This document shows, in pieces, positions 1-35,280 of a stretch of 64,000 bases of DNA. Location of the stretch: IMG/VR virus record IMGVR_UViG_3300045988_165521, one strand, 5' to 3'. Both the position numbers and the translations under genes were made by a program. How positions within the stretch are numbered: position 1 is the first letter of the stretch; every line of letters starts with the position of its first letter. Below the pieces are notes generated by a model. It was given only the letters and a program-made list of their open reading frames with translations, had not been told where the DNA came from and searched no databases. This stretch comes from a virus.

Positions 1-644
1 AACACAAAATAACTAAGAACAACTGCTATAATCAAAATTTCTTTAGTAAAATTGATTCTCATGATAAAGCATACTTTTTAGGATTTTTAATGGCAGATGG
101 GTATATTTGTACAACTCCTTACAATAAACAAATAGGAATTGGGATTCAGACAAAAGATAAATATATATTAGAATACTATAAAAATTTAATAGGTAAAAAA
201 TTAAATATAAAACAATATAAAAATTCTAGTAAACTAACTATTACTAGTACTATAATGTATAGTGATCTAACTAAATTAGGATTTATAGAAAATAAATCTC
301 ATAATGACTATCATTTTCCAGATATTCCTGATGAATTTAAATCATCTTTCATTTGTGGATATTTTGATGGAGATGGGTGTATAACTATAAAATCTACAGG
401 ATTTAGTGTATGTTCAATATGTTGTAATTCTAAAATATTCTTAGAAGATTTAAAATCTATATTGGCAAAATATAACATACTATGTAGACCTATCTGTAAA
501 GAAATAAAAAATAGAAAAAATTCAATATATGTTTTATATTTATCAGGAAGATCCAACCAATTAAAATTTAAGGATTTTATATATAAGAGCGTTAATGTTT
601 ATCTTGTACGTAAATATGATAAATTTATGAAAATACCGTGCTAA
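1..644 (+). CDS. LAGLIDADG homing endonuclease, intron-encoded, 5'-partial (frame open to the window edge)
   Basis: Two LAGLIDADG motifs are present: AYFLGFLMADGYI (about 69-107) and FICGYFDGDGCI. The frame of track ORF 90..644 stays open upstream to nt 3 (HKITKNNCYNQNFFSKIDSHDKAYFLGFL...). The stop is TAA. Confidence 0.85.
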   Translation, partial: HKITKNNCYNQNFFSKIDSHDKAYFLGFLMADGYICTTPYNKQIGIGIQTKDKYILEYYKNLIGKKLNIKQYKNSSKLTITSTIMYSDLTKLGFIENKSHNDYHFPDIPDEFKSSFICGYFDGDGCITIKSTGFSVCSICCNSKIFLEDLKSILAKYNILCRPICKEIKNRKNSIYVLYLSGRSNQLKFKDFIYKSVNVYLVRKYDKFMKIPC

Positions 645-810
645 CTGTTGTAATAATATATAATGGTAGTGTAACGCGTAGGAAGTGAACCTGTTATACA
701 GAATATAATCTTCCCAAGAGTGTCCATTATCCTTATGGGATAAAAATGTACGCTGAACTATAAGGAAACTTATAGAAGTAGAGATAAAAAGCTCTACGAT
801 AACAAAATTG
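1..810 (+). mobile_element. Group I intron, 3' portion (the 5' splice site lies upstream of the window), inserted in the Walker A codons of an AAA_24-type ATPase gene
   Basis: It carries a LAGLIDADG ORF. The 3' tail 748-810 (gtacgctgaacta...gctctacgataacaaaattg) aligns with the tails of the introns ending at 5643, 20742 and 24148. The P7 halves gcgta (676-680) and tacgc (749-753) covary with gacta/tagtc in the other copies. The intron ends in G (810), directly before the in-frame exon KSTACANLPG. Confidence 0.7.
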
Positions 811-1479
811 AAAAGCACAGCTTGTGCTAATCTTCCTGGAGCATTATGTATCGACCTTGAAGGGGGTGGATATGATTATATTGATGCTGTAAAGGTAAAA
901 GCATCTTCTGTTAAAGATTTAAAAGAAATTTGTGCTGCAATTAAGGAAGCTAAATATCCTTATAAGTTTATTGTATTGGATACAATTACTAGACTTGAAG
1001 AAATGGTTAAACCATTAGCTTTAAAGTTATATTTAAATAGTCCTGCAGGACAAAAGTTTACAGGAGATGACGTACTTGATGCACCAATGGGAGCAGGATA
1101 TAGCGCTCTTCGTAAGGCATTAGAGATGGTTATTGATATGGTATCTAAATGTGCACCTAATATTATTCTTATTTGTCATACAAAGGATTCAGCAATCGGT
1201 AATACTGATATGACTGCAAAGACTATTGACTTATTTGGAAAAGCAGGTAGAATTCTTGCTTCAAAGTCAGATGCTATTGGTTATTTAGATAGAGATGAAG
1301 ATTCAAATACTATTCTAAGTTTTAATACAAATGATAAATTTGTAGAATGTGGTGCTAGACCAGAACATTTACGAAATGCAGATGTAGTATTAGGAGAAAT
1401 GAAGGAAGATGGAAATATTGAATTTCATTGGGAAAGAATTTATCCTTCACTTTTAAATCCTGTAGAAGTTAATATATAA
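811..1479 (+). CDS. AAA_24 / Sak4-like recombination ATPase, exon 2 (exon 1 lies upstream of the window)
   Basis: It starts KSTACANLPGALCIDLEGGGYDY, which is the tail of a GxxGxGK|ST P-loop followed by the family-typical 'IDxEGG'. A Walker B-like FIVLDTIT and ILICHTKD are present. The track ORF's TTG 'start' at 808 is the intron end. Confidence 0.7.
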   Translation, partial: KSTACANLPGALCIDLEGGGYDYIDAVKVKASSVKDLKEICAAIKEAKYPYKFIVLDTITRLEEMVKPLALKLYLNSPAGQKFTGDDVLDAPMGAGYSALRKALEMVIDMVSKCAPNIILICHTKDSAIGNTDMTAKTIDLFGKAGRILASKSDAIGYLDRDEDSNTILSFNTNDKFVECGARPEHLRNADVVLGEMKEDGNIEFHWERIYPSLLNPVEVNI

Positions 1480-1489
1480 TCTAAGGATT

Positions 1490-1945: not shown

Positions 1946-1957
1946 AATTATAAGAAT

Positions 1958-2623: not shown

Positions 2624-2645
2624 AAAATAATATAGTTAAATTTTA

Positions 2646-4017: not shown

Positions 4018-4216
4018 TTGTAGAGTAGTGTTCACCTCTGCTTCTGGACAAAAAATCATTATTGTATTTACATATGATGAAGAGAAGGATGAATTAAATT
4101 ACGTCCCTCGATTTGAACCTCAAGTTGATGCAAAAACTCAATTAGGTTTGTCTGGAAAGTTATGTGAAATATTTTTAGAAGCATTATCTAGCAAAGATGG
4201 AACAACAAAAGATTAG
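4010..4216 (+). CDS. hypothetical protein (68 aa)
   Basis: ATG to TAG ORF overlapping both neighbours by a few nt. No motif recognised. Confidence 0.4.
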   Translation: MDSCRVVFTSASGQKIIIVFTYDEEKDELNYVPRFEPQVDAKTQLGLSGKLCEIFLEALSSKDGTTKD

Positions 4217-4838
4217 ATACGATTTGACTCCACAATATGGAATTGAGGAGGTCAACAAAATTCTTACAAGTAAATTAAGTAAGTACCAAGAAAACGAATG
4301 GAAAAGAGGTATGAAGTGGACGGATGTTCTCTCATCTCTTAAAAAACACTTGAATCAGTTCGAACGAGGTATTGATTATACAAACGAGGGACTTTTAGAA
4401 ATGGCTGAAGTAGCTACTAATGCATTGATATTATGTGAATTTTATCATATATATCCTCAAGGAGATGATAGAGTTATGGCCCCTATCGATAAGCCTATTG
4501 TTGGATTAGATCTCGATAATGTAGTATTTGATTTCAATAAAGCTTATGAAGACAAGTTTGGTGTTGCTATGAATCCTTACTGGAATGCAAACTATCAGAT
4601 GTCTGAACATCTACATGAATTAGAATCAGATAAAGAGTTTTGGATTAATATTCCTGTATTACATAGACCCTCTTTTGAAGTAGACTATTATGTAACTGCA
4701 AGAAATATTCCAACTGAATGGATTCAGGAAAGTTTACAGAAGAATGGTTTACCATGTGCTCCTGTAATTACAGTACCTTGGAATGCTAGTAAAGTTGAGG
4801 CAATTAAAAGTAGGGGAATTACGATTATGATTGACGAT
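4197..4838 (+). CDS. dNTP pyrophosphohydrolase-like N-domain fused to a 5'(3')-deoxyribonucleotidase (HAD/NT5C-like), exon 1
   Basis: The N-terminal half IRYDLTP...KYQENEWKRG...LLEMAEVATNALILCEF resembles the phage dATP/dGTP diphosphohydrolase N-domain. The second half has HAD motif I (VGLDLDNVVFDF). The exon ends ...ITIMIDD, with the last nt T at 4838 immediately before the intron. Confidence 0.6.
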
Positions 4839-5643
4839 TAAAAATATTACTTCAACTAATCCAGTCGTCATTAAATCGCATGAATTGCTGGAAACTCCAG
4901 AGATGGACAATCAGCAGCCAAGCACACCTTTAACAAAGTGTGAAGGTTCAACGACTAACTAATGAAACTATGTTAACATTAATTTTAATAATACTATTTA
5001 GTTGTAGAATATATTATAATCCTAGTCCATTGTTTGAAGAGTATAAAAATTATAGAAATCAAAAACATGAATTAGAATTAGTACAATGTGCTAATACAGA
5101 TAAGAAAATTAAGCAGCTATTATCTATATACTTAGATAAGTACCAGGGAAATCGAATATGGATAATACAGTATCATAGAGGGATCAATGACTACATGTGT
5201 GGTTCTATGAGATTTGAACTTTATGATAAACAAACTAAACCTATTAAATATCAGTATACTGATTTTAACCTAAGTTGGTATACTCTACCCGATTATTTAA
5301 GAATCCATGATAGTTTTATAGGAAAACTTGAAGAGGTTGATCCTGTTTTATCTATAAGTAATAGTGCAAAATATATTATTTGTAAATTAATAAGAGATTA
5401 CAATAATGTTTCTATTGGTATATTTGGTATATCTTATTTAGATAAGCTTCCTAACAAATTGTTAGAAACAGATCTGCAACAAGATTATATTGAATTACAA
5501 AAATTAATGTTAGAATAGAATATAATTTAGACACGAGCGTGCGACATCTAGAAATAGATGATGATATAGTCTGAACTACAGATATAATCTAAAAATGAAA
5601 CTGTAGAATTAACAGATAAAGAACTGTTAAGTTAACATAATTG
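4839..5643 (+). mobile_element. Group I intron (805 nt) in the deoxynucleotidase gene
   Basis: P1 pairs exon tgacgaT (4832-4838) with intron Gtcgtca (4864-4870), giving U.G at the splice site. Core blocks are gaattgctgg 4882-4891, caatcagcagcc 4908-4919, ggttcaacgacta 4945-4957 and gatatagtctgaacta 5563-5578. It ends ...cataattG (5643). Confidence 0.8.
4970..5518 (+). CDS. intron-encoded ORF of unknown function (182 aa from ATG 4970); no homing-endonuclease motif recognised
   Basis: It lies between the P7 5' strand and the P7 3' strand (the P8 loop region). The hydrophobic N terminus MLTLILIILFSC suggests a signal peptide or membrane anchor. No LAGLIDADG, GIY-YIG, HNH or His-Cys signature is present. 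The track start GTG 4940 overlaps the intron core, so ATG 4970 is more likely. Confidence 0.5.
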   Translation: MLTLILIILFSCRIYYNPSPLFEEYKNYRNQKHELELVQCANTDKKIKQLLSIYLDKYQGNRIWIIQYHRGINDYMCGSMRFELYDKQTKPIKYQYTDFNLSWYTLPDYLRIHDSFIGKLEEVDPVLSISNSAKYIICKLIRDYNNVSIGIFGISYLDKLPNKLLETDLQQDYIELQKLMLE

Positions 5644-5769
5644 AAATATGATAATTATAAAGAAATTACTAATGCGGGAATATTCTGTTATTTAATGGAT
5701 GCTCCTCATAATCAGTATTATCAAGTAGGACATCGTAGAATTTATGATCTTAAAATACCTATTAAGTAA
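5644..5769 (+). CDS. 5'(3')-deoxyribonucleotidase, exon 2 (41 aa)
   Basis: It reads KYDNYKEITNAGIFCYLMDAPHNQYYQVGHRRIYDLKIPIK. Joined to ...IMIDD this gives the NT5C-type IDD...(x)n...L.DAPHN C-terminal region. TAA at 5767-5769 overlaps the next ATG. Confidence 0.6.
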   Translation, partial: KYDNYKEITNAGIFCYLMDAPHNQYYQVGHRRIYDLKIPIK

Positions 5770-6062
5770 TGAACTTAAAGGATAAATTAGAACTGGCCTT
5801 ACATGAAGCCTATATAAAAGCCTATAAATTAGCTGAACCTTCTGCAGACTTTGATATTTTAGTTGAAAATGCAGAAATTATGTCAGATGGCAAGAAGAAC
5901 ATTCATTTTGAAAACTACTTTTTAGATGATGATATTGCAGAAAATATCTTAAATGAAGTAGCTAAGAAATATAAGTTATCTAAATACATGAAAAGCCAGC
6001 TTCATATAGCTTATTATTTAGGTTGTAGTCCAGCGACAAAACGCAAGGAAAATGACAATTAA
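5769..6062 (+). CDS. hypothetical protein (97 aa)
   Basis: ATG to TAA, translationally coupled to its neighbours. Confidence 0.5.
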   Translation: MNLKDKLELALHEAYIKAYKLAEPSADFDILVENAEIMSDGKKNIHFENYFLDDDIAENILNEVAKKYKLSKYMKSQLHIAYYLGCSPATKRKENDN

Positions 6063-7071
6063 CTTAAATGATATAAAACTTAGTCCAGTCTTAGAAAGTG
6101 TATATAGAAGTAAAATAAGTGATGCAGAATATTTCTCAAGCTCTTATTCTAATTATATATCAAATTCTAGATTAAAGTATATAAATCCCGATCAGGGTGG
6201 TAGTCCAAGTTTATATAATAAAGGTATAGAAAATAAATCAACTAATTCTTTAGAATTAGGAACAGCTATACATGAATTATTTTTACAACCAGAGTCTTTT
6301 AAATTAGGTGATTCATATAATAAGCCTACAGCAAAATTAGGTATGGTAATAGATAGTATTATTAAATATAGAAAACAAGGTTATACTATTAGAGAATCTA
6401 TTACTAAAAGCTGTATTGATATAGATTATTATAAAAATAATTTAAATGAGAGTAGAATCCAAAATATAATAAAATCTGGATTAAATTATTATCAAAACTG
6501 CAAAGATTTAATAGAAGGCGATTTAGTAATTTTAAATGATAAACATCGTACAATTTGCAGTAATTGTTTAGAATCGTTATCTAACAATCCTTCAATAGTA
6601 AACTTAGTAAGACCTGAAGGTCTTGAAGCTTATAATGAAGATGCTTTGTTCATAGATATTATTGGCGAATATAATAATAGTAAATGTATATTAAAATTAA
6701 AAATGAAAGCTGATAATTGGACGATTGATAAAGATAATAAAATAATTACTCTTAATGATTTAAAGACTACGGGTCATTTACTTGAACAATTTATGAATGG
6801 AAGTTTTTGGAATTTTCATTATCATAGACAGATGGGAATGTACCTATGGATGTTACTTCAATTCTGTAAAAAAGAATATGGATACACTCCTAAAGACTGG
6901 ACTTTTCAAGCTAATATTATTGCCGTTGAAACTACAGGCTCTAACAGAGCTAGTGTTTTTAATATTGATTCAGATATACTTAATATAGGTAGATTAGAAT
7001 TTTGTAGACTTCTAAAAATGGTTGCATATTGTGAAATCAATGGTTATTCTGATGATGTTACATTTATTTAA
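6052..7071 (+). CDS. PD-(D/E)XK family exonuclease (DUF3799-like)
   Basis: GTAIHELFL is present, followed by ...KADNWTID...ITLNDLKTTG (D...D/ExK), followed by HYHRQMGMYLW. Confidence 0.6.
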   Translation: MTINLNDIKLSPVLESVYRSKISDAEYFSSSYSNYISNSRLKYINPDQGGSPSLYNKGIENKSTNSLELGTAIHELFLQPESFKLGDSYNKPTAKLGMVIDSIIKYRKQGYTIRESITKSCIDIDYYKNNLNESRIQNIIKSGLNYYQNCKDLIEGDLVILNDKHRTICSNCLESLSNNPSIVNLVRPEGLEAYNEDALFIDIIGEYNNSKCILKLKMKADNWTIDKDNKIITLNDLKTTGHLLEQFMNGSFWNFHYHRQMGMYLWMLLQFCKKEYGYTPKDWTFQANIIAVETTGSNRASVFNIDSDILNIGRLEFCRLLKMVAYCEINGYSDDVTFI

Positions 7072-7073
7072 AT

Positions 7074-18824: not shown

Positions 18825-19078
18825 AATTATTGAAATTCGGAGCATCTTATTGTGCTCCATGTAGAGCTATGGCTCCTATTTTAGAAGAATTAAAATCTAA
18901 AATTGATATACAAGATATAGACGTAGACGAAGCAGATCCTGTAGTACTTACTAATTATAAGATTAGAAATATTCCTGTATTAGTCTTATTAAAAGATGAT
19001 AAAGAAGTTTGAAGACATGTTGGAAGTATTTCAAAATCTGACTTAGAAAAAGAAATTGAAAAATATGAAGCTAATTAA
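18818..19078 (+). CDS. thioredoxin-like protein (86 aa)
   Basis: It has a CxxC site, FGASYCAPCRAM. One TGA at 19010 (KEV[W]RHVG) extends track ORF 18818..19012 to TAA at 19076-19078. Confidence 0.7.
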
Positions 19079-19580
19079 ACCTTATTTTGAAATTATAGAA
19101 CAGGAATCTGGACTTGAAGGTATTTATAAACAAATTGAACTCGCAGGAAGAACTTGTTATAAATCAGAAGATAAAATAACTCCTGATTCTGCTAAAGGAT
19201 TTGTCGATAGAATGATCAAATCTGGTCATGGCGCTATGCTAGAACATGGTACTGTATATTTAAAAGCTGATTCTGAATTTTATAATCCTTTTATTCAACC
19301 AGAAGACGGAGAGGAAGAAGAATACAATGATTTATTTAAATATGGCGATAATAACTATTCGGTTTGTCATGAACAAAGAAGTGTAAATGGAAATACGATT
19401 TATGTCACCACTAATCTTAGAGTATTAGTAGAAAATAACTGGCTTGATGATCTAAAATATCTCTGTGAACCTACTGAATATCATGAAAAACGAATTACAG
19501 TAAAGTTTATTTGTGATCGTGGTGTATCTCATGAATTTGTAAGACATAGAGTATTCTCTTTTGCTCAGGAATCTACCCGT
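19065..19580 (+). CDS. thyX: flavin-dependent thymidylate synthase, exon 1
   Basis: It contains GRTCYKS, SGHGAMLEHGTVYL and FVRHRVFSFAQESTR. The exon ends after cgT (19580), inside the RHR...S..R|Y motif. Confidence 0.8.
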
Positions 19581-19670
19581 CAAGAAACAATGGCGGCTTA
19601 AATAAGTAATTATTTATGCATAACCCAGTGAATTGCTGGAAGGCTAAAATTTATTAAACTTTTCTACAAG

Positions 19671-19702
19671 TTTGGATATATCCAAATTTATCATTAACTT
19701 TG
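19671..19702 (+). promoter_or_regulatory. Bacteroidota-type promoter candidate (TTTG-N20-TAacTTTG) inside the thyX intron, upstream of the HNH ORF
   Basis: TTTG lies at 19671-19674 and taactttg at 19695-19702. The ATG is at 19733. Confidence 0.45.
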
Positions 19703-19732
19703 TTACAGTAATAAATATAAAATTTTTAAGCT

Positions 19733-20509
19733 ATGAGAAAAATGGATATTAACGTAGGTGATAAATTTGGAGATTGGACTGTAACAAATATAAATGTTCT
19801 ATCAAAGAATAAAAGTAGATATGTATTATGTCAGTGTAAATGTGGCTATATGGGAGAAGTTAATGCCTCAGCCCTTAGAACTGGAAGGAGTTCTAGCTGT
19901 AAATCCTGTGCCAAAAGGAAAAATACCACAATTTTAAAAGTAGGAAGTAAATACAAACATTGGACTATACTAGAAGGTCCAATATACAAAAATTCTACTG
20001 CTTATTACAAAGTTAGATGTGATTGTGGGACTGAAACCTATAAGTTACCTATAGAACTTCTTTATAAAGATAGGGACTTTCAATGTGAAAAATGTGCTCA
20101 TAAAGAGAATATGGAAAATATTAGAAAGAAAAATGGAGAAGTTGGAGAACTTACTAAAACTGAATATACTAGGCTTAAGAGGTCTGCTGAAAAGAGAGCT
20201 TATGTTTTTGAGGTTTCTATAGAATACTTATGGAATCTATTTCAAGAACAAAAACAAATTTGTGCTATTACTGGGGATTATATCCCTAATATAGAAGAAG
20301 CTTCTCTTGATAGAATAGACTCCTCTAAAGGGTATATTGAAGGTAATGTTCAATGGGTAACTTATCAAGCTAACTTAAGTAAACATGTTATGACAATGGA
20401 ACAATTATACGAGTTTTGTAGAAAAGTATTAAATCATGCTAATCAGCAGCCAAGCCAGAGGTTAACAACTCTGGAAGGTTCAGAGACTAATTGATGAAAC
20501 TATGTCTAA
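19733..20509 (+). CDS. intron-encoded HNH homing endonuclease
   Basis: The N-terminal Cys-rich repeats are CQCKCGYMGEV...CKSCA and CDCGTE...CEKCA. The C-terminal region is SLDRIDSSKGYIEGNVQWVTYQANLSKH. The track end at 20494 is a tandem TGA-TGA; with TGA=W the ORF runs to TAA at 20507-20509. The 3' end overlaps the intron core. Confidence 0.75.
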
Positions 20510-20742
20510 AATAATTTTTGAATGTCCTGTATTGCAGGAATTTTGGGACAAATATATAGCCAATAGAGATTGGAATAAAACTTGTAAAGAGATTAGTACA
20601 ATTCTTGATGGCTTAGAGTATTTTAGTGTAGAATATAATTCAAACACGAGTGCTGGACATCCTTTATAGGATGATGATATAGTCCGATACTCTGAGGAAA
20701 CTCAGAGAGTTCAAGATAAAGAGCTTGAACATTAACTAATTG

Positions 20743-21168
20743 TACTGTAATTATAGCAAAGATAAGTTTGGAAGTGAGCTTACTTTTATTATTCCTTATT
20801 GGACAAATATTCCAGAAGGACAAAGTTATTGGCATGATGGCATTGGGTATCGCGTAGGAGCAGATATTCAAAATAAAGATTTTGGATATATTGAGAAGTC
20901 TCCAAACTATTTTAATTTCTTATCTTCTTTAGAAGAATCAGAAAAATGTTATCTTAGACTATTAAATGAAGGATGGGTTCCTCAACAAGCTCGTTCTATA
21001 CTTCCAAATTCTCTCAAAACAGAGTTAGTAATGACTGGAACTCTTGAACAATGGAAAGGATTCTTTAAGTTACGTAGTCCATTATATGGAGCAATAGGAG
21101 CTCATCCTCAAGCAGCAGAACTAGCAGATAAACTGTATATACAGTTTAAGGAGAAAAATTATATTTAA
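20743..21168 (+). CDS. thyX: flavin-dependent thymidylate synthase, exon 2
   Basis: It starts YCNYSKDKFGSELTFIIPYW directly after the intron terminal G. The 'TTG start' of the track ORF at 20740 is the intron end. Confidence 0.8.
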   Translation, partial: YCNYSKDKFGSELTFIIPYWTNIPEGQSYWHDGIGYRVGADIQNKDFGYIEKSPNYFNFLSSLEESEKCYLRLLNEGWVPQQARSILPNSLKTELVMTGTLEQWKGFFKLRSPLYGAIGAHPQAAELADKLYIQFKEKNYI

Positions 21169-22606: not shown

Positions 22607-23101
22607 ATGAAGAAAAATATAAATACAATTAATATTGAAGAATTAAAAACATTAGCTAGTTATATTATTGATAATAATAAACGATTATATAATGAGCATA
22701 AAAAGACTACTGCAATTGAAGTAGTAGGTGAATCTGGTTTAGGTAAAACTTCTGCTATCATTCAGTTAGCTCAAGAAAGAGGAATGGACTGTATTAAACT
22801 TAATCTTTCTCAGTTAGAGGAATTAGGTGATCTTATTGGTTTTCCAATTAAAGAGTATTATGTTTGTACAGAGCGTCCTAGACTTGATGATGATGGAATG
22901 CCTGTTGTAGAAAATGAAATAGTAATTAAGGATGAGGAATGTCTTTGGGTATCTGCAGATGTACTAGATTCTTATATTGCAGAGGGTTATAGAATTAAAG
23001 ATAATATATCTCGAATGGGATACGCTCTTCCTGCATGGGTTCCTACTTCTCGAAATGAAAATGGCACAATTTTAATTCTTGATGACTTTAATCGTGCGGA
23101 T
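22607..23101 (+). CDS. MoxR-like AAA+ ATPase, exon 1
   Basis: Walker A is GESGLGKTS and Walker B is ILILDDFNRAD. The exon ends at T 23101. Confidence 0.7.
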
Positions 23102-23121
23102 TAAAAAATATATTGTAAAGT

Positions 23122-23152
23122 TTTGTTTCCCTGAATAAATTTAGTATCTTTG
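23122..23152 (+). promoter_or_regulatory. Bacteroidota-type promoter candidate (TTTG-N19-TAtcTTTG) inside the intron, upstream of the GIY-YIG ORF
   Basis: TTTG lies at 23122-23125 and tatctttg at 23145-23152. The ATG is at 23169. Confidence 0.45.
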
Positions 23153-23168
23153 ATATAAATTTAAAAAT

Positions 23169-23912
23169 ATGGAAAAACTAACATTACAAAAGATTAAAGT
23201 TTATAAAAAAGTTTGTGGAATTTATAAAATAAAGATCCACGATAAAGAATATATAGGAAGTTCAAAAAATATTCAGCATAGATTAAGACAACATCTAATT
23301 ACTTTAAAACAAAATAAACATCACAATCATACTATGCAAAATTTGTATAACAAGTATGGCATTGATAATATTTATTTTGAAGTTATAGAAACTTGTCTTG
23401 AGGAAAATAGAATTAGTAGAGAAAAATACTATATAAATAGTATTAAACCTTATATAAATCATATTTTAGACCCTGAGAATATCATTAGAGATAAAGAATA
23501 TAAACATAGAATAAGTATCTCTAAAAAGAAATATTATGAGACACATTCTCCAGTTAATATAAAAATGGTATATCAGTATAGTTTAGAAGGAAAATATCTT
23601 CAAAGTTATAAATCGATAACAGATGCAGCTATATCTACTAACCAAGATACTACTGCAATATGTAGTGTATGTAATAATCGTAGTTATACTGCTGGTGGAT
23701 ATAGATGATCATTTGAATTAAAAGAAAATCTTTCTAAACTAAAAAAGAAATATAAGAAAATACCTGTTATTCAATATTCACTTGATAATGTTTTTATTAA
23801 AGAGTGAGATTCTAAAACAGATGCTGAAAAAGAACTAAAAATTTGTAATATATCTCGCGCTATAAGAAAAAATCTTACTGCAGGAGGATATAAATGAAAG
23901 TATAAAATCTAG
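23169..23912 (+). CDS. intron-encoded GIY-YIG homing endonuclease (247 aa)
   Basis: It contains GIYKIKIHDKEYIGSSKNIQHRLRQH...NR...REKYYI. Track ORF 23169..23708 continues through TGA at 23706, 23808 and 23895 to TAG at 23910-23912. Confidence 0.8.
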
Positions 23913-24148
23913 AGGTCCGCATAAAATAGCGTGAATTGCTGGAAAAGCCTGAGGAGGTCAATCAGCAGCTAAGCTAATTAGTAATAATTAGAAAGTTCAA
24001 CGACTAGTACATGGAGTCCAGGAATGGATGGTAAAGTACCACGAGTGCGCTACACTATTTATATAGTGAAGATATAGTCTGAACTACGTTATAACCTAAG
24101 AAAAGACGTAGAAGTATAGGATAAAGAGCCTATACGATAACAATAATG

Positions 24149-24931
24149 CCTAGATTTATACAAGCTACCATGGAGCTTATTGACCGAGGAGAATATATTT
24201 CATGGAGTCTTCCTCCTAATTGTACAATTATATTAACATCAAATCCTGATAATGGTGATTATAATGTTAATTCTATGGATAATGCCCAAAAGACTCGATA
24301 TATTAGTTTCGAATTAGGTTTTGATAAAGATGTATGGGCTCGTTGGGCTGAGAAAGAGGGTATTGATGGTCGTTTTATCAATTTCGTATTATCTTATCCT
24401 GAGATTATGAACAAGGAGGGAGGAGTACAAAAAGTTAATCCTCGAAGTTTAGTAACCTTTGCAAATACTATTTCAGGTTTTAAAGATTGGTCAGATACTA
24501 ATACTTTAGGTTTAATTCTTAATATTGCTCAAGGTTGTTTTACTTCTGAAGAAAACGTTATTGGAAACTTATTTACTACATTTATTGCTAATAAGTTAGA
24601 TAAATTAATGGACCCAGATACAATGTTAAATAAAGATTGGGATTATGTTAAAGGAGAATTAGCAAAACAAGTATATGATGGTACTAACTATCGTGCAGAT
24701 ATTGCTGCAGTTTTAACAACTCGATTCTGTAATTTTGTAAATCTATATTTTGATACAAAAGGTAGTAAAACAGAAGTAGCTGTTGATAGAATTCTTAAAA
24801 TTATTGAGCATGATAAGATGTTATTTTCTGAGGATTTGATTTTCAGTTTAATTAAAACTCTCCAAAAAAATCATCCTACAAGATGTAATAAATTATTATT
24901 GAATCCTAAAGTAGCTAGAAAGTTAATATAA
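24149..24931 (+). CDS. MoxR-like AAA+ ATPase, exon 2
   Basis: It starts PRFIQATMELIDRGEY. Joined to ...DDFNRAD this matches the MoxR DEINRA-x3-Q-x-ALLE-x-M-x-E pattern. The ATG at 24146 of the track ORF belongs to the intron end. Confidence 0.7.
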   Translation, partial: PRFIQATMELIDRGEYISWSLPPNCTIILTSNPDNGDYNVNSMDNAQKTRYISFELGFDKDVWARWAEKEGIDGRFINFVLSYPEIMNKEGGVQKVNPRSLVTFANTISGFKDWSDTNTLGLILNIAQGCFTSEENVIGNLFTTFIANKLDKLMDPDTMLNKDWDYVKGELAKQVYDGTNYRADIAAVLTTRFCNFVNLYFDTKGSKTEVAVDRILKIIEHDKMLFSEDLIFSLIKTLQKNHPTRCNKLLLNPKVARKLI

Positions 24932-24932
24932 T

Positions 24933-27314: not shown

Positions 27315-27340
27315 AAAATAAATTGTTTTACTTCTATGAA

Positions 27341-27378
27341 AAATCCCCTTACTTGCTTAATTGCGAGTAAGGGGATTT
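27341..27378. terminator. bidirectional intrinsic terminator hairpin between the convergent modules
   Basis: A perfect 13-bp stem, aaatccccttact / agtaaggggattt, with a 12-nt loop. An A-run lies on the left flank and a T-rich tract on the right. Confidence 0.7.
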
Positions 27379-27384
27379 CTTTTG

Positions 27385-27420
27385 CCTCTATCTGCTTATG
27401 CGGATAGAGGTTATTTTTTT
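27385..27420 (+). terminator. intrinsic terminator hairpin with a T-run
   Basis: The stem is cctctatc (27385-27392) / gatagagg (27403-27410), followed by ttattttttt. Confidence 0.6.
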
Positions 27421-30400: not shown

Positions 30401-31855
30401 TGGATTATCCTTTGCAATATCGTTAATATCCATCGATCCCTGCTGGACATTTATAATATCCTGAGCAATATCAGCTAACTCATTTCCACGTCGCTCATTA
30501 ATACTTTTTATATAGTCCTCTAACTTTTTATCAAGTTCTTCTTCCGTTTGAGCATATTCTCACCTACTTTTTACAGAATCTTTAGGTTTATATTCATTTC
30601 AGAATCTATATTTTCCATATCCTGCTTCAGGAGCAGAAGAACTAATATATTGAACGATTTTTTCTTTATAAAACTTAAAGTTTGCGTTCTTTCTTTGAAC
30701 TTTTGAAGATAGTTCATAATTAGGAAAGAACTTACTCATAGGTTCTTCAATAGTTTTAATAATATCAAATGAATCTGTTAAACGTCTAATAGGAATAATT
30801 TCTCTAACTCTATCATAATATTTTCCAATTGTATTAGATGGATTTACTATAATATTATCAGAATCAATGTATACACTCGATAAATTATCAATTTGAGATA
30901 AATTATCATTTCCTGAATTATCTTTTTTATAATCAATATCAAGTTTAACAGGAATAATTCCTACTGTAGCTACATTAATACCTTGTTGTTCTAACATAGC
31001 TTTATAGAAGTTTAACTGATATGCTGCACCTAATTTTTTAGTAGAAGCTCATACATTATTTAATAATGCATTTCTAGTTTCATCTCAAGCTCCTACTGCT
31101 TTTCGAGATACTTTAAAATCTCGAATATGAGCATTACCATTTTTATCTACAATTAATAAGTCAATTCTACCATTAATTGAATTTAATCCTGCTGCTTTAT
31201 AAGGTTCAGCTATATCTTCAGAAACAATTGGTATTTCAGTAATGAATTTACAGTCTCTTCCAAATTTTTCTTTAGTGTCTTCTATAAAATCTCTTAATTG
31301 GTTTTGTAACAATGATACTTGCTCTTCATTTAATAATTTTGGAGTATATTCTATTTCAGGATTAATTACAGATTCAAAAAGTTTATGTACTTCTGTACCA
31401 TAATCGGTTAGTTGAGTTCAACTCTTTTGTAGATCCTCCAAATATTTATCTGCTTCGTTCGAAGTCATGCCTTTTTTCATTAGTCTTTCTTTTTCTCTTT
31501 TCAGATACTCTTCAAGATTAAATTTTGTAACTAATACTTTAGCTAAATCAAAAGGATCTCCATAGGTTGTAAGGAACTTAGTAACACCCATTGATTTATC
31601 TAATTTTAGAGCAATTTCCTTTTCTCCGTCTTCATTTGTTATTTCAAACTCTGTAGCAAGTGATTTATATTTTTTTATAGCTTCACTTATTTTATCTACA
31701 GTGACTTGTTGTTGATCTACTTGTAGTGTTGCATCAACATTATCAACTACCATATTTTGAGCGTAGTTGTCAAGAAACGTGTCCAACTCCATTTCGGAGT
31801 TGAACACTTTCTTTTCACCGTTTATCGTAATTTCGTATGTACAATTTCTTGCCAT
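27419..31855 (-). CDS. giant protein (1478 aa) with a RecB-type PD-(D/E)XK nuclease domain near the N terminus
   Basis: A single frame is open from ATG 31853-31855 to TAA 27419-27421 with TGA=W. It joins track ORFs 31418.., 31085.., 30599.., 29876.., 28700.., 27773.. and 27419... I walked all gaps and found no TAA or TAG. The nuclease motifs are GRIDLLIVDKNGNAHIRDFKVS (about 31108-31173) and QLNFY (about 31001-31018). Confidence 0.75.
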
Positions 31856-34800
31856 TATTTACAATCTTCTTTTATAATATCATCATTCATTAATTTATTC
31901 TTGATTGTAGCTACTTTTTGACTAAGTTTATAGTTTTCATGAATAAAACTATCATAGAATGGCATGATTTCTCCACTATTAATAATAGCTTTAAGTTCAG
32001 GATTAGTAATTGAAAGAATTTCATCTATAATTTCTAATTCTACATCAGATTTAATATGTCCATTATAATAGTCTGTAATCATAGTTGCTAAAACTTCTTC
32101 ATCAAAGTCAGATCCTTTCTTATTTTTATAATAAGGATTTTGTCGCATTTTATTTCATAATTCAGTATCCTGTATATTACCTAAAATCTTATAATAAGAC
32201 TCGGCATACATATTTCTGGCATCTGCTAAGTATAGATGTGAGAATTCATGAATTAGAGTATCGTCTGTAGCTCTATCAATATTAATATAAATTATTCCTT
32301 CTTTAATAAATCCTTTTGCATTTTTAGTTGCAGTATCTTCATTAATTACATCCTGATCTGTTACTAATCTTACATTTTGTAAAGAATTTACATTTTTTAC
32401 TAATTCTGTAATCTTAGTAGACATTGGAGTTTTTAAGTCATAGAATTTGGTTGGTCCATTATTAAATAAAGTAAGTTGATTTGGATCAGTTCTAACAAAA
32501 GCTCCTGAATTAAAGATAATATATTTTAGAGTTCTAGATATAAGATTTTTAGAAGATGTATTAGTATTATTAAACTCGTCTACTAATATGTTATGTTCAC
32601 CTATTAGTTTATTAGTTACAGCATACATTCTTTGATCATATCCTTCATCAAATAACTCTGCTACACTTTCAGCTATACCTCATTCCGTATAATAGTCAAA
32701 ATCAATGTAAGAAACAACTTCTTCATTATTTTTATCTGCTTTTGTTTCTGCAACTTCAATAATTTTAGCAATTTTTAAAGCTTCTTCAACAGATATGTCT
32801 GTTTTAGGAATATTGAATCTTACTTGTCTATACTGTTCATTTCCATCAGATACTAATATTGGTTTAGTAGTGTCTGTAGTTGAATCATTATAATCTCTAT
32901 CTAAAGAAGTGTTTTCTTCAGATTTAAATCCAATGGTTTCAACATTTTCATTTGCTGCATTAATAAGTACTGCTTCTGCTCTTTCTGCCATACTATCATT
33001 TGGATCTCGTTTTAGGAATGTATTAGCAAGTTCTTGTGGATTTTGTTGGTCAATTCAATTATTATAATCAACAACTCATAATGAATTATCTCCACTTGCT
33101 ACTAAGTCCTCAAACAAACGAGTTAATGAAGCCTGTCCAAAACCATCTTTATTAACAATTAAGTTATATAAATAGAAGGCATTAACAGGATTTAGAGCTC
33201 CAAATTCAGGAATCGTAACTTTATTTAAACTATTAAAATCTCGTAAGATTTGTTCATAAAGAGCTTTAGTCTTTTGACTATTATCTATCTGCATCATATT
33301 AAATGGAAGTTTATAAAAACCTCTTTCCTTACCTTCTGAATCAGTTTTTAATCCAAAGCATAAATATTTAATAAATGCATTATCAGGTAATTTTTCTTTA
33401 AGTGTAGGAATAATATAATCCTCAATATACATTCTAAATGAATCAATATTATCCTTACTGTCTAGATTAATTATAAAGTTTTCATCTTTATTAATTAAAA
33501 TAGAATTTTCTACCTTATATTTCTGATTAACTGGAACTTGAAAACTTAAATTTTTAGTTTTAATTCATGAATCAATTAAGAAATCATCAATATTATTTCT
33601 AGTTTGTCTAAATTCTTCTATAGATAACTTACTTCCTCTTTTAGGAGTAGTTTCATCTATAACAATAGATTCAACTTGATTTCTAACTGATAATCGATTA
33701 AGAACTTCATTATCAACACTTAGAATATTAAACATTTCTTTGAAGTGTGGAACACTAGCTATAACATCTAATATATTAAATGTAGTCTTAACTTTTTCAT
33801 AGTTATCAATTTGTTGTAATCTGTATTCTTCATTAGCAGCAAACTTTAGTAGATTAAATTTCTCTCCAATTTCATCTTTAAACTTATCATTAATAAATGT
33901 TTCAATTCCCTTAATATAAGAATACTTTCCTCATTTATCTGTAGGAAGTCCTTGATTAATTTTTAATAATCTACCTAGAATTCTAATTTCTTCTGCACCT
34001 TTAGCTTTCTTCTTTAATGTTTTAAATAAAATTTCAGTTCTCTCATTTGCTTTTTTAATATCAGCTTCAGATGCATTTGGTTTATAAACTGCATATCTTG
34101 AAGGATCCTCAATAGCTTGATCAATGAAATGAATTTTATTTTTTGGAATTGGATCTGTTCAAAGATTTGTATTATATTCCGATACAAGTTTAGTAACTTC
34201 TTCAGATACCATTAAATCTCCAATTCTTCTTAAGTCCTCTCCAAGCATTAAACTATATACATAAAGATCAACTCAATTAGAGTCTGCATTAATTTTCTTA
34301 AGAATTAACTCCTTAGCATTATCTGTTGCAGCATTCAGTAACTCTCCCATATCAAGAGATTTATCAGTTAATCTTCTTTGGAAGTCTATTAGCTGAATAA
34401 TATTATTTGCAATATCTGCAGGAACTGCATATTTAGAAATTCATTCAGGATCATTTTCAAACATAGAAAAATCTACATTTGCTAATGTAATTAATTGTTC
34501 TGTTCCATTACGTTGAGAACCTTTAATAAATGAATATCTACTTAAAAGTTGTCTAGTTGTATCAAAATCTCTATTTACAATACTATCATAAACTTGTTTA
34601 AATCTAGTATTATATAAGTTAGATAATGCAAAGAAACTCTTTAATCCTGTAGCAACATTACCAATTACAGTTTTACCAACCATATTTTGAATTTGCATTA
34701 AATATTTACTAGCAGAATTATAAGGATTCATAATTTTTGCACTTTCTCCTAATACAGATTTACTTGCAAGTTCTTGCATATGAGATGTTGTAATAGGCAT

Positions 34801-34971
34801 TGTAAGGTTAATCTGATTTTTAGGACTCAGTATTACATCAAATACACCATTTACAATTGCATTTCTTATAGCATCCTGTTTTAAGAATGGAGATATTTTT
34901 GGATCTTCTGCATTTGTAAGTAATTTTCCATTATCAGAAATAGAATAACCTAATATATAAACTTTATCGAT
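31855..34971 (-). CDS. giant virion-type RNA polymerase-like protein, exon 2 (C-terminal 1038 aa) with a zincin HExxH domain
   Basis: It starts IDKVYILGYSISDNG.... It joins track ORFs 34441.., 33076.., 32680.., 32155.. and 31855.. through TGA only. DTLIHEFSHLY contains the HEFSH codons at 32236-32250. The stop is TAA at 31855-31857. Confidence 0.75.
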
Positions 34972-35280
34972 CATTTTTGTTAGCTTATACTTTCGTATAA
35001 GATCAGACTATATCTTATATTAAATTACTATTACCATAATTTAATATCCTCTTATTTCCATAAAATAATGTACTCTACTTGTTTATTCCTAATAATATTT
35101 CTTTATTAGTATACTTTCGATAGTCGTTGAACCCTTCTTTTCAGAATCGGCTGCTGATTGTCCAATACTTATAATTTTTAAACATTCACACTTAAATCAT
35201 TTTTAGATTTTATGTTGTAGTTTATAAGTCTCTAAGGAGTTTCCAGCAATTAAAGAGGTTTTATTATGACACGTAACTCT
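34972..35280 (-). mobile_element. ORF-less group I intron (309 nt) inside the RNAP catalytic DxDxD motif
   Basis: This is the only block in the 9.1-kb frame with in-frame TAA/TAG (35203, 35020, 35008). Core blocks, in plus-strand coordinates, are ccagcaatt 35243-35251, ggctgctgattg 35149-35160, tagtcgttgaacc 35121-35133 and tcagactatatc 35003-35014. P1 pairs exon attatgaT (35288-35281) with Gtcataat (35270-35263). It ends ...aaaaatG (34972). Confidence 0.85.

What the first reader, a model, noticed from the sequence alone, without database searches (positions are those of the whole stretch)
1..35280. One group I intron scaffold present in five copies, with cargo in four different loops and three endonuclease families
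The five introns are <1-810, 4839-5643, 19581-20742, 23102-24148 and 34972-35280 (minus strand). They share blocks of near-identical core sequence and a common 3' end ...(a)a(t/a)tG.

The extra ORFs sit at different places in the scaffold:
- GIY-YIG lies between the 5' splice site and the internal guide sequence (the P1 loop).
- HNH lies after the AATTGCTGG element, with its 3' end overlapping the core.
- LAGLIDADG lies upstream of P7.
- The unknown ORF lies between the two P7 strands (the P8 region).
- One copy is ORF-less.

The first copy shows compensatory changes in the putative P7 (GCGTA/TACGC instead of GACTA/TAGTC). That supports the helix and argues against recent duplication.

All five insertion sites fall in catalytic or nucleotide-binding motifs: P-loop GK|ST, HAD IDD|, ThyX STR|Y, AAA+ NRAD|P and RNAP DYD|ID.

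This density of introns in one 64-kb stretch looks like an intron family actively spreading within a recoded phage genome and repeatedly capturing different endonuclease cassettes.
Basis: partly seen in the sequence, partly recalled or inferred. Interest (0 to 1): 0.75.

Follow-up and report, generated by a model that had tools for sequence, protein, structure and literature searches.

The report
Five group I introns, crAss-like phage
Five essential genes in this stretch of a gut crAss-like phage, which reads TGA as tryptophan, are each interrupted by a self-splicing group I intron; this kind of intron load is already published for such phages, but one intron has no gene of its own and sits in the RNA polymerase active-site motif, and another carries a holin-like membrane-protein gene instead of an endonuclease.

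Summary
Five group I introns lie at the stated coordinates. The first runs off the window; the full element spans about -310 to 810.

- Covariance models built only from other phages' introns hit these five sites and nothing else in the 64 kb.
- Each intron has a P1 helix with a U.G pair at the 5' splice site, a terminal G, and helices P3-P9.
- Splicing restores gap-free proteins. Intron-less alleles or homologues exist for all five sites.

Corrections:
- The cargo sits in three places, not four. GIY-YIG is in the P1 loop. HNH and LAGLIDADG are both in the P5 loop. The unknown ORF is in the P7.1/7.2 extension, not P8.
- The P-loop junction is YG|KST, not GK|ST.
- The five are not one scaffold copied within this genome. 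Each core is closer to introns in other viral contigs than to its neighbours.

The window matches the "Zeta" crAss-like phages of Yutin et al. 2021: TGA recoding, with near-identical relatives on 90-175 kb contigs. That paper already reported very high intron density.

New details:
- Near-identical phages differ in having empty, ORF-less or ORF-containing versions of the same sites.
- The ORF-less 309-nt intron splits the RNA polymerase DxDxD motif. Yutin et al. reported DxDxD disruptions that they left unexplained.
- The "unknown ORF" is a membrane-anchored, GAF-like protein resembling T4 holin T. It also occurs in a thyX intron elsewhere.

The parts
1..810 (+). Intron I1, 3' 810 nt. The full element spans about window -310 to 810 (1121 nt), in the AAA_24 ATPase gene at Walker A ...KYG|KST.
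   Evidence: R2 hit at 753-783, 19.5 bits. 5' part read from L204, 100% identical over window 1-822. Intron-less alleles with 100% identical protein. ORF-less 299-nt variant.
1..644 (+). LAGLIDADG homing endonuclease ORF of I1. The start lies off the window at about -159. It sits in the P5 loop and its last codons overlap P4' (634-639).
   Evidence: Pfam LAGLIDADG_3, E=3.7e-17. Helix map. The ORF-less variant shows the cassette boundaries.
811..1479 (+). Exon 2 of the AAA_24 ATPase (crAss 'ATP_43b'-type).
   Evidence: Pfam AAA_24, E=4.6e-20.
4197..4838 (+). Exon 1 of the dGTP_diPhyd_N plus nucleotidase (HAD-like) gene. Ends ...MIDD.
4839..5643 (+). Intron I2. P1 GACGAU/GUCGUC, no P2, P3 4876-4882/5538-5544, P7 4953-4957/5567-5571.
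   Evidence: R1 81 bits and R2 54 bits. Helices. Empty alleles with identical flanks, plus 396-nt and 1705-nt variants. The 396-nt variant scores 44.5 bits on RF00028.
4970..5518 (+). Cargo ORF of I2 (182 aa; a GTG at 4940 is an alternative start) in the P7.1/7.2 apical loop. One N-terminal transmembrane helix plus a GAF-like domain, resembling T4 holin T. Not a recognisable endonuclease.
   Evidence: No Pfam or PHROG hit. AF2 pLDDT 95. Foldseek. dN/dS 0.25-0.42.
5644..5769 (+). Exon 2 of the HAD-like gene (KYDNYKE...).
19065..19580 (+). ThyX exon 1. Ends ...QESTR.
   Evidence: Pfam Thy1, E=6.3e-32 on the spliced product.
19581..20742 (+). Intron I3. P1 CCGU/GCGG, P2 19600-19615, P3 19625-19630/20651-20656, P4 19634-19639/20443-20448, P7 20485-20489/20680-20684.
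   Evidence: R1 44 bits and R2 60 bits. A Kehishuvirus thyX intron with about 88% identical core scores 71.8 bits on RF00028. 76 of 80 related thyX genes are continuous at STR|Y.
19733..20494 (+). HNH endonuclease ORF in the P5 loop of I3. Its 3' end overlaps P4'-P6-P7. It reads on to 20509 if TGA = Trp.
   Evidence: phrog_3322 E=9e-19 and phrog_374 (HNH endonuclease) E=6e-18. Absent from the Kehishuvirus homologue.
20502..20669 (+). Short 55-aa ORF in the P7.1/7.2 loop of I3. Probably not a conserved gene.
   Evidence: Sequence reading. Counterparts in L330 and Kehishuvirus are similar only where the ORF overlaps the RNA core.
20743..21168 (+). ThyX exon 2 (YCNYSKD...).
22607..23101 (+). MoxR-like AAA ATPase exon 1. 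Ends ...LDDFNRAD.
   Evidence: phrog_1297, E=7e-33 on the spliced product.
23102..24148 (+). Intron I4. P1 23096-23101/23915-23920 with an 813-nt P1 loop, no P2, P3 23927-23933/24046-24052, P7 24002-24006/24075-24079.
   Evidence: RF00028 66.9 bits, E=3.9e-17. R1 82 bits and R2 43 bits. Uninterrupted homologues align without gaps across the junction.
23169..23912 (+). GIY-YIG plus NUMOD1 endonuclease ORF in the P1 loop of I4. Three in-frame TGA codons are read as Trp.
   Evidence: Pfam GIY-YIG E=4.4e-7 and NUMOD1 E=2.7e-11. Sequence.
24149..24931 (+). AAA ATPase exon 2 (PRFIQATMEL...).
35281..40998 (-). Virion RNA polymerase exon 1. Ends ...GSDYD.
   Evidence: DFDxD/DxDxD motif literature.
34972..35280 (-). 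Intron I5, ORF-less, 309 nt. P1 AUUAUGAU/GUCAUAAU, P3 35258-35253/35053-35048, long P5 extension, P7 35125-35121/35010-35006.
   Evidence: RF00028 34.6 bits, E=2.9e-7. R1 53 bits. R2 34 bits. 11 contigs at 97-99% aa have an exact empty site and 5 carry the same 309 nt.
31855..34971 (-). RNA polymerase exon 2 (IDKVYILG...). The spliced product is 2945 aa when TGA = Trp.

Best explanation
The window comes from a TGA-recoded crAss-like (Crassvirales, most likely 'Zeta'-type) gut phage.

What the five elements are. Each of five essential genes is interrupted by a self-splicing group I intron of the phage IA type, which has a P7.1/7.2 extension. After transcription, the 5' exon end pairs with the internal guide sequence to form P1 with a U.G wobble. 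An external guanosine bound in P7 attacks the 5' splice site. The terminal G then replaces it and the exons are ligated, restoring the open reading frame. This step is inferred from structure; splicing was not assayed.

How they spread. The introns belong to a large pool shared among phages. They reached these genes by separate homing or recombination events during co-infection, not by copying from one another inside this genome.

The endonuclease genes. Three introns carry homing endonuclease genes that entered peripheral loops as independent cassettes: LAGLIDADG and HNH in L5, and GIY-YIG in L1. These probably cut intron-less alleles at conserved active-site codons and drive gene conversion.

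The other two. I5 has no ORF and must rely on recombination or on a trans-acting endonuclease. I2 carries a non-endonuclease passenger in its P7.1/7.2 loop: a membrane-anchored GAF-like protein of T4 holin-T architecture.
For: Shown here:
- Family membership by covariance models built without window sequences and by Rfam.
- Covariation in P4/P5/P6 across 58 distinct sequences, mostly not used to build the model: 94.9% of cells paired, 15 of 17 pairs with double changes, 0 of 500 shuffles as high.
- Helix maps with U.G and terminal G for all five introns.
- Compensatory P3, P4 and P7 differences between copies.
- Gap-free spliced proteins.
- Exact empty sites in near-identical phages for I1, I2 and I5, and in related thyX and ATPase genes for I3 and I4.
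- Six synonymous differences within about 9 nt either side of the I1 junction, between alleles that are otherwise identical over the 90 nt compared. This fits a co-conversion tract.
- ORF-less or ORF-variant versions of I1, I2 and I3.
- Each core is closer to outside introns than to its neighbours in the window.
- TGA = Trp: ORF coverage rises from 18,475 to 26,625 aa, and the GIY-YIG ORF has 3 in-frame TGA codons.

From the literature:
- Homing endonucleases target codons for functionally critical residues, and their ORFs sit in peripheral loops (PMC3984707).
- Zeta-group crAss-like phages are intron-rich (PMC7886860).
Against: - No transcript or splicing data are available.
- Rfam finds nothing in the whole window at gathering thresholds.
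- Three lineages fall below the gathering score even on short sub-windows: I5 at 34.6 bits and the I2 type at 44.5 bits. The I1 type gives no Rfam hit at all.
- P1 of I3 is only 4 contiguous base pairs.
- No empty allele of I4 was seen among about 20 close relatives, so it may be fixed and immobile.
- Presence/absence polymorphism could reflect loss as well as gain.
- The holin-like assignment of the I2 cargo rests on a predicted fold only.
Confidence: 0.88

Rival explanations
1. One reading: a single intron scaffold has multiplied within this genome, moving from gene to gene and picking up a different endonuclease each time.
For: All five share the P3-P9 core and four share exact core blocks. 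I2 and I4 are each other's closest partners inside the window, with local scores of 40 and 48. Five introns in 41 kb is dense.
Against: Every window core has a better match outside the genome than inside it. I3 scores 71/65 against other contigs but at most 31 inside. I4 scores 55/55 against 40/48. I2 scores 51/51 against 40/48. I5 and I1 are distinct subtypes. The shared blocks are invariant across more than 120 unrelated viral contigs. Related phages carry different subsets of these introns.
Confidence: 0.1
2. The interruptions are not spliced. The genes are truly split, are pseudogenes, or are expressed by an unknown mechanism, as Yutin et al. 2021 suggested for disrupted Zeta-group RNA polymerase genes.
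For: There are no expression data. Yutin et al. note disruptions within the DxDxD motif and invoke 'additional, yet unknown expression mechanisms'. Rfam at gathering thresholds sees nothing.
Against: Every interruption has a complete group I core with U.G and terminal G, and removing it restores conserved motifs without gaps. The core helices covary. The genes are essential and otherwise intact, and the RNA polymerase reads as 2945 aa without a stop. Empty alleles differ by exactly the intron.
Confidence: 0.03
3. The 182-aa ORF of I2 is a new kind of homing endonuclease, or an intron maturase, rather than a passenger membrane protein. Its presence in introns of two different genes reflects its own homing into the conserved P7.1/7.2 loop.
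For: The same cassette (86-87% aa), with identical flanks, sits in the same loop of a thyX intron in L329 and L330. It is under purifying selection. I2 has no other endonuclease.
Against: The high-confidence model is one transmembrane helix plus a GAF-like domain with no nuclease-like fold. The best structural matches are GAF domains and T4 holin T. Distant family members are ordinary free-standing phage genes. The L205/L295 variant of the same intron already carries a LAGLIDADG gene. Recombination between the conserved intron flanks is enough to explain the transfer.
Confidence: 0.1
4. The pattern is an assembly artefact: chimeric contigs that mix intron-plus and intron-minus strains.
For: The population is highly polymorphic, and no single IMG/VR contig examined has the window's exact set of introns.
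Against: Each intron-plus junction recurs identically in several independent assemblies: I5 in 5 contigs, I4 in about 20, I1 in at least 3. The junctions are precise and structured. Recombination between co-infecting strains explains the mosaicism naturally.
Confidence: 0.02

Closest known systems
Group I introns of Zeta/Delta-group crAss-like phages (Yutin et al. 2021, Nat Commun 12:1044, PMC7886860)
   Same: Gut crAss-like phages with TGA-to-Trp recoding. Near-identical relatives sit on 90-175 kb contigs, consistent with the published 145-192 kb genomes. Many group I introns lie in core genes, including the AAA ATPase 'ATP_43b'. There are LAGLIDADG-encoding introns in the transcription block, and recoded stop codons occur inside the intron ORFs.
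   Different: That study detected introns through endonuclease protein domains. Here the RNA cores, splice sites and helices are defined. An ORF-less intron is placed exactly in the RNA polymerase DxDxD motif, where they reported unexplained disruptions. Empty, ORF-less and ORF-containing alleles are documented. Membership of the Zeta clade itself was not tested by phylogeny.
Phage T4 td / nrdB / nrdD(sunY) introns and Staphylococcus phage Twort / Bacillus SPO1-type introns (subgroup IA2; own knowledge, and review PMC3984707)
   Same: Several related IA-type introns lie in nucleotide-metabolism and polymerase genes of one phage. Endonuclease ORFs of different families sit in different peripheral loops. 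Insertion is at conserved active-site codons. Related phages are polymorphic for intron presence. ORF-less or defunct-ORF introns are mobilised in trans (T4 mobE/I-TevIII, PMC2790892).
   Different: The density is higher. Three of the five lack P2. There is an 813-nt P1 loop carrying a GIY-YIG gene. The host uses a recoded genetic code. One intron carries non-endonuclease cargo. The IA2 assignment was not tested here.
Kehishuvirus sp. 'tikkala' thyX intron (OQ198717, Crassvirales, host Bacteroides cellulosilyticus)
   Same: The core is about 88% identical to I3 over the aligned blocks, with the same P2 (GUAA loop), P5 and P6, and it is also in thyX. RF00028 scores 71.8 bits.
   Different: It is inserted 14 codons upstream (GVSH|EFV) and has no HNH ORF in P5. 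GenBank annotates it as two thyX CDS plus a hypothetical protein, not as an intron.
T4 holin T (class III holin; PDB 6PSK/6PXE periplasmic domain)
   Same: The I2 cargo and its ~230-aa relatives have one N-terminal transmembrane helix followed by a ~165-aa alpha/beta GAF-like domain. Foldseek E-values are 9e-5 to 6e-4 and TM-scores normalised to the target are 0.65-0.70. BFVD hits are annotated holin, class III holin or T holin.
   Different: There is no sequence similarity detectable by Pfam. The window copy lacks the ~35-aa cytoplasmic N-terminus of its relatives. The top PDB hits are generic GAF domains. No adjacent endolysin was seen and no functional data exist. It is encoded inside an intron.
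Non-endonuclease genes in group I introns: fungal mitochondrial rps3 in the rnl intron, and Clostridioides difficile IStrons (own knowledge; IStron in PMC3984707)
   Same: A group I intron loop hosts a gene that is not a homing endonuclease.
   Different: Here the host is a phage, the cargo is a membrane protein, and the cassette is shared between introns in different genes.

Membership tests
Group I intron (Rfam RF00028) | Covariance-model score at or above the curated gathering score (50 bits) | tested here: inconclusive
   I4 core 66.9 bits and the Kehishuvirus intron, whose core is about 88% identical to I3, 71.8 bits: both met. I2-type 396-nt variant 44.5 bits, E=3e-10 and I5 34.6 bits, E=2.9e-7: significant but below the gathering score. 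I1-type 299-nt variant: no hit. Whole-window gathering scan: 0 hits.
Group I intron | Conserved core: P3-P9 with the P3/P7 pseudoknot, and the P4-P6 domain | tested here: met
   Helix map with coordinates for all five. P4/P5/P6/P6a covary in the family: 94.9% of cells paired, 15 of 17 pairs with double changes, 0 of 500 shuffles as high. P3, P4 and P7 differ between window copies by compensatory changes. The MFE fold of the ORF-less I1 recovers P1, P2, P3, P7.1, P8 and P9, z = -4.25.
Group I intron | 5' splice site after a U that forms a U.G pair with the internal guide sequence; intron ends in G | tested here: met
   I1 ACGGU/GCCGU, I2 GACGAU/GUCGUC, I3 CCGU/GCGG (weak), I4 GCGGAU/GUCCGC, I5 AUUAUGAU/GUCAUAAU. 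All five end ...UG.
Group I intron | Precise removal restores the host reading frame, and intron-less alleles exist | tested here: met
Group I intron | Guanosine-dependent self-splicing | not testable with these tools
   Needs in vitro transcription and splicing, or RNA data.
Subgroup IA (IA2, as in other phage introns) | P7.1/P7.2 extension between P7 and P3'. The IA2-specific peripheral elements were recalled from memory, not from a model. | tested here: inconclusive
   An extra stem between P7 and P3' is present in all five and covaries: GGAAG/CUUCC, CUAA/UUAG, UUGA/UCAA, GUAC/GUAC, and CAGU/ACUG in Kehishuvirus. P2 is absent in I2, I4 and I5. No subgroup-specific model was available.
LAGLIDADG homing endonuclease (I1 ORF) | LAGLIDADG domain(s) | tested here: met
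   PF14528, E=3.7e-17, two stretches. Cleavage activity was not tested.
GIY-YIG homing endonuclease (I4 ORF) | GIY-YIG catalytic domain plus a NUMOD DNA-binding module | tested here: met
   PF01541 E=4.4e-7 and PF07453 E=2.7e-11, two stretches.
HNH homing endonuclease (I3 ORF) | HNH nuclease motif | tested here: inconclusive
   No Pfam family at E<=0.01. PHROGs phrog_3322 'endonuclease' 9e-19, phrog_374 'HNH endonuclease' 6e-18, phrog_1035 'endonuclease VII'.
T4-type (class III) holin, for the I2 cargo | Single N-terminal transmembrane helix plus a large periplasmic domain of the holin-T fold | tested here: met
   AF2 pLDDT 95, helix 2-16 followed by an alpha/beta domain. Foldseek to 6psk_T/6pxe, and to BFVD holins. 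GAF domains in general score slightly better.
T4-type (class III) holin, for the I2 cargo | Sequence membership of the Pfam holin-T family; lysis function; linkage to an endolysin | tested here: not met
   None of the 44 family members gave a Pfam hit relevant to holins; the only hits were three unrelated families in single members, E 0.002-0.004. No endolysin is annotated next to free-standing relatives. Function is not testable here. So it works like, or looks like, holin T but is not filed as a member.
Zeta-group crAss-like phages (Yutin 2021) | Genome of 145-192 kb, TGA or TAG recoding, giant RNA polymerase with DxDxD, very high intron/intein load; the clade is defined by TerL and core-gene trees | tested here: inconclusive
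   TGA = Trp. Near-identical relatives lie on 90-175 kb contigs. RNA polymerase with DYDID. Five introns. No phylogeny was done and TerL was not looked for in the window.

The most novel reading that the evidence does not exclude
Two parts.

(a) ORF-less group I introns escape both endonuclease-domain scans and Rfam gathering thresholds. They could account for at least some of the 'unknown expression mechanisms' proposed for the fragmented RNA polymerase genes of Zeta crAss-like phages. Here a 309-nt intron splits the DxDxD motif exactly.

(b) The P7.1/7.2 loop of these introns acts as a landing pad for non-endonuclease passenger genes. One such passenger is a T4-holin-T-like membrane protein. 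It is under purifying selection and is shared between introns in different host genes, so the introns work as vehicles for accessory (possibly lysis or superinfection-control) genes.
Probability: 0.45. Interest if true: 0.6.

Novelty: new member of a known kind. Interest (0 to 1): 0.42.

Why it matters
crAss-like phages are the most abundant viruses of the human gut. Their Zeta-type members are poorly annotated because recoding, introns and inteins break up their genes.

- **Annotation.** RNA-level models such as R1 and R2 recover intron boundaries that protein-domain scans and default Rfam runs miss. This allows correct reconstruction of essential proteins, including the 2945-aa virion RNA polymerase across its catalytic DxDxD motif.
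- **Homing in the wild.** Closely related phages carry empty, ORF-less and ORF-containing versions of the same sites. This gives a natural system for studying homing, endonuclease capture and intron loss, with predicted target sites for new LAGLIDADG, GIY-YIG and HNH enzymes.
- **Cargo.** The holin-like gene suggests that group I introns in phages can carry genes other than endonucleases.

None of this changes the basic picture, which is textbook group I intron biology already reported for this phage group.

Tried and rejected
- Rfam on the whole window at gathering thresholds, and on 1-36000 at E<=10, found no group I intron. Only short sub-windows gave hits. This is a sensitivity problem caused by long inserts and AT-rich peripheral stems, not evidence of absence.
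- Rfam on the ORF-less I1 variant found nothing.
- ARAGORN found no tRNA or suppressor tRNA in the window.
- Megablast of 25 kb against GenBank phages gave only two short hits, so the genome is not in that collection.
- Pfam did not recognise the HNH ORF or the I2 cargo. PADLOC and NCBIfam were not tried.
- AF2 on the shallow 13-sequence alignment gave pLDDT 45.7 and was discarded. The 44-sequence alignment was needed.
- A profile search of the cargo family against PDB sequences gave only noise.
- The RNAalifold consensus for the 3' core alignment captured only P9, because MAFFT misaligned P8. P3, P7 and P8 were therefore checked by explicit pairing in a script, not by a formal covariation test.
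- The R1 hit at 52947-53049 (16.6 bits) was considered as a sixth intron. It was rejected because it lies inside a continuous 1536-aa ORF and has no matching 3' core.
- Inteins, group II introns and frameshifts were rejected as explanations. There is no in-frame Hint domain and no reverse-transcriptase ORF, and exact group I cores are present.
- P10 pairing was not resolved convincingly.

Full report
**What the window is.** G+C content is about 29%. Reading TGA as a sense codon raises total ORF coverage from 18,475 to 26,625 aa, whereas TAG recoding adds little. The GIY-YIG ORF contains three in-frame TGA codons. With TGA = Trp the window encodes a replication and nucleotide-metabolism block on the plus strand: primase-like Toprim, RNR, helicase, ligase, ThyX and AAA ATPases. 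The minus strand carries giant proteins, including an RNA polymerase with a DYDID motif. The only GenBank phage with a meaningful DNA hit is a Crassvirales member, Kehishuvirus. Near-identical genes occur on IMG/VR contigs of 90-175 kb. This matches the 'Zeta' crAss-like phages of Yutin et al. 2021: 145-192 kb, TGA or TAG recoding, and up to 14 introns per genome (PMC7886860). Clade membership was not tested by phylogeny.

**Are the five introns real?** Rfam at gathering thresholds finds nothing in the window, and a permissive scan of 1-36000 also finds nothing. On short sub-windows RF00028 appears:
- I4 core, 66.9 bits, above the gathering score of 50.
- I5, 34.6 bits, E=2.9e-7.
- A 396-nt variant of I2 from a sister phage, 44.5 bits.
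- The Kehishuvirus intron, whose core is about 88% identical to I3, 71.8 bits.

The exact elements AATTGCTGGAA, AATCAGCAGCC and GATATAGTCYGA each occur exactly once in each of the four complete introns; elsewhere in the window there are only mismatched matches at about the chance rate.

From those relatives alone I built two covariance models. R1 covers the 5' core (P3 to P7). R2 covers the 3' core (P3' to P9).
- R1 hits the window at 23926-24006 (82 bits), 4875-4957 (81), 20404-20489 (44) and 35121-35201 minus (35). The next best is 16.6 bits, inside a continuous ORF.
- R2 hits 20642-20714 (60), 5529-5601 (54), 24037-24119 (43), 34976-35016 minus (34) and 753-783 (19.5, E=0.003).

So there are exactly five members and no sixth.

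On 58 distinct family sequences, mostly not used to build the model, the P4/P5/P6/P6a pairs are 94.9% paired. Fifteen of 17 pairs show changes on both sides, and 0 of 500 shuffles reach the observed values.

**Anatomy of each copy.**
- All five have P1 with a U.G pair at the splice site and end in G.
- P3 differs between copies by compensatory changes: UCGCAUG/CGUGCGA, CCAGUG/UGCUGG, UAGCGUG/UGCGCUA, CCUCUU/AAGAGG and AUGGGCA/UGUCCAU.
- The 5' part of I1 was recovered from contig L204, which is identical to the window over positions 1-822. The full intron spans about -310 to 810 (1121 nt). Its P1 is ACGGU/GCCGU, it has an 8-bp P2, and its P4 is also swapped (ACGGUG/UACCGU).
- A 299-nt ORF-less version of I1 exists in sister phages. 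Rfam misses it. Its minimum-free-energy fold recovers P1, P2, P3, P7.1, P8, P9 and the next stem, with z = -4.25.

**Where the cargo sits.**
- GIY-YIG (23169-23912) lies between the 5' splice site and the guide sequence GUCCGC (23915-23920). That is the P1 loop, as claimed.
- HNH (19733-20494) lies between the P4 strands, in L5, and runs into P4'-P6-P7.
- LAGLIDADG in I1 lies in the same place, L5, with its last codons forming P4'.
- The unknown ORF of I2 lies after P7 and before the conserved CACGAG-P3' element. This is the apical loop of a covarying stem in the P7.1/7.2 extension, flanked by the conserved GAAAC and GAAUAUAAU motifs. It is not in P8.

Cargo therefore occupies three locations, not four. 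I5 is ORF-less and is of a different subtype.

**Insertion sites and empty alleles.** Spliced products are gap-free.
- *g1, AAA_24 ATPase.* The junction is ...SKPKYG|KST, in Walker A. At least 16 contigs carry an uninterrupted junction there. They differ from the intron-plus allele by six synonymous changes within about 9 nt either side of the junction (CCT AAA TAT GGC|AAG TCA versus CCA AAA TAC GGT|AAA AGC). Over the 90 nt compared they are otherwise identical. This pattern is what a co-conversion tract would leave.
- *g2, dGTP_diPhyd_N plus nucleotidase.* The junction is IDD|KYD. Thirteen contigs examined have the empty site at 99-100% protein identity. Three have a 396-nt intron, and one (plus L205) has a 1705-nt intron with a LAGLIDADG gene in the P1 loop together with the unknown ORF.
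- *thyX.* The junction is QESTR|Y. It is continuous in 76 of 80 relatives. The closest (75% aa) has the same ACCCGT|TACTGT junction.
- *g4, MoxR-like ATPase.* The junction is LDDFNRAD|PRF. The 1045-1049-nt intron is present in all of about 20 close relatives. Uninterrupted homologues at 52-72% identity align across the junction without gaps.
- *RNA polymerase.* The junction is GSDYD|IDK. Eleven contigs at 97-99% identity have the exact empty site and five have the same 309-nt intron. Two carry a related LAGLIDADG-containing intron 6 nt upstream, at GSD|YDID.

DFDxD/DxDxD is the catalytic motif of the crAss-like virion RNA polymerase (bioRxiv 10.1101/2020.03.07.982082; PMC7886860). Insertion at codons for critical residues, and ORFs in peripheral loops, are standard for homing-endonuclease-bearing introns (PMC3984707).

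**One scaffold spreading within the genome?** No. Local alignment scores of the 5' and 3' cores are higher against introns in other contigs than against any other window intron:
- I3: 71/65 outside versus at most 31 inside.
- I4: 55/55 versus 40/48.
- I2: 51/51 versus 40/48.
- I5: 37/43 versus at most 23.

The shared blocks are invariant across the whole family. Sister phages carry different subsets. Contig 173911, for example, has I1, I3, I4 and I5 but lacks I2, and it has a further intron in the DUF3799 nuclease gene that the window lacks. thyX alone has three insertion sites within 17 codons in different phages, and one thyX (L330) carries an intein plus two introns. The picture is a shared pool of introns and endonuclease cassettes exchanged among co-infecting phages.

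**The 'unknown ORF'.**
- Close homologues (63-99% identity) are all unannotated. dN/dS is 0.25-0.42, so the gene appears to be under purifying selection.
- The same cassette, with identical flanks, occupies the same loop of a thyX intron in L329 and L330.
- An exhaustive profile search found 82 representative clusters with E <= 0.001, most of them about 230 aa. These have a ~35-aa N-terminus, one transmembrane helix and a conserved C-terminal domain. None gave a meaningful Pfam hit, and there were no PDB sequence hits.
- Distant members are free-standing phage genes.
- With the deeper alignment AlphaFold gives pLDDT 95. Foldseek finds GAF domains, the periplasmic domain of T4 holin T (6psk_T, 6pxe) and viral proteins annotated as holin, class III holin or T holin.

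I read it as a holin-T-like membrane protein carried as passenger cargo. This rests on a predicted fold, and the window copy lacks the N-terminal cytoplasmic segment of its relatives.

**Relation to what is known.** High intron density with recoding in these phages is published (Yutin 2021). Those authors detected introns by endonuclease domains. [quoted passage not shown] The ORF-less I5, which is invisible to such scans and to default Rfam, is a concrete explanation for that kind of disruption in this phage.

**Verdict.** These are genuine group I introns. The introns are new members of a known kind, with two side findings worth following up.

Noticed in passing
window 4970-5518 (alternative GTG start at 4940); relatives L329:2501-3046, L330:2501-3049, L205:2971-3576: The cargo ORF of I2 is not an endonuclease. 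It has one transmembrane helix plus a GAF-like domain resembling T4 holin T (AF2 pLDDT 95). It belongs to an unannotated family of 279 proteins with E<=1e-5, most about 230 aa. The same cassette sits in a thyX intron in other phages.
   Followed up: yes
L292:3143-3538 (same site as window 4839-5643): A 396-nt version of I2 carries, in the same P7.1/7.2 loop, a 49-60-aa strongly hydrophobic ORF (MIKYIFNYIWYLIQLPIYFILMCCVFTIPLAAMLWGF...). This may be another small membrane protein, or it may be chance.
   Followed up: no
window 18036-18824 and 9952-10314: Two free-standing homing-endonuclease-like genes: GIY-YIG plus NUMOD1 just upstream of the thioredoxin-thyX pair, and HNH_3 just downstream of RNR. 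These are candidates for trans-acting mobilisation of ORF-less introns.
   Followed up: partly
L204:189-268 (minus); corresponds to the window gene 6052-7071: Sister contig IMGVR_UViG_3300045988_173911 has another group I intron, with a variant P4 (UCGGUG/UACCGA), after ...SRLKYINP in the DUF3799/PD-(D/E)XK nuclease gene. The window's copy of that gene is uninterrupted.
   Followed up: partly
L330:67-4745; L329:1891-3615; L001:2531-3865: thyX is a hot spot. There are three different intron sites within 17 codons (GVSH|EF, VRH|RV, STR|YC). One thyX carries an intein (after ...GRT) plus two introns. GenBank annotates the Kehishuvirus tikkala thyX as two CDS plus a hypothetical protein rather than as an intron.
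   Followed up: partly
L314-L321 (g1 homologues): Eight contigs have a second intron site in the AAA_24 ATPase at residue 123|124. One contig (3300029251_000002) appears to carry both that intron and I1.
   Followed up: no
L260:2004-2939: A LAGLIDADG-containing intron sits 6 nt upstream of the I5 site in the RNA polymerase (GSD|YDID). Its long P5 extension looks nearly identical to that of I5 on reading the two sequences (not quantified), but P1, P3, P6 and P8 differ. This suggests modular recombination between introns.
   Followed up: partly
window 1-64000: No tRNA gene, and no suppressor tRNA, is present in the 64-kb window despite pervasive TGA = Trp use in both the replication genes and the giant minus-strand genes.
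   Followed up: no
window 27000-27500: The strand switch between the plus-strand replication block and the minus-strand giant-gene block coincides with the GC-skew turning point. A strong hairpin lies at 27339-27382 and looks like a bidirectional terminator.
   Followed up: no
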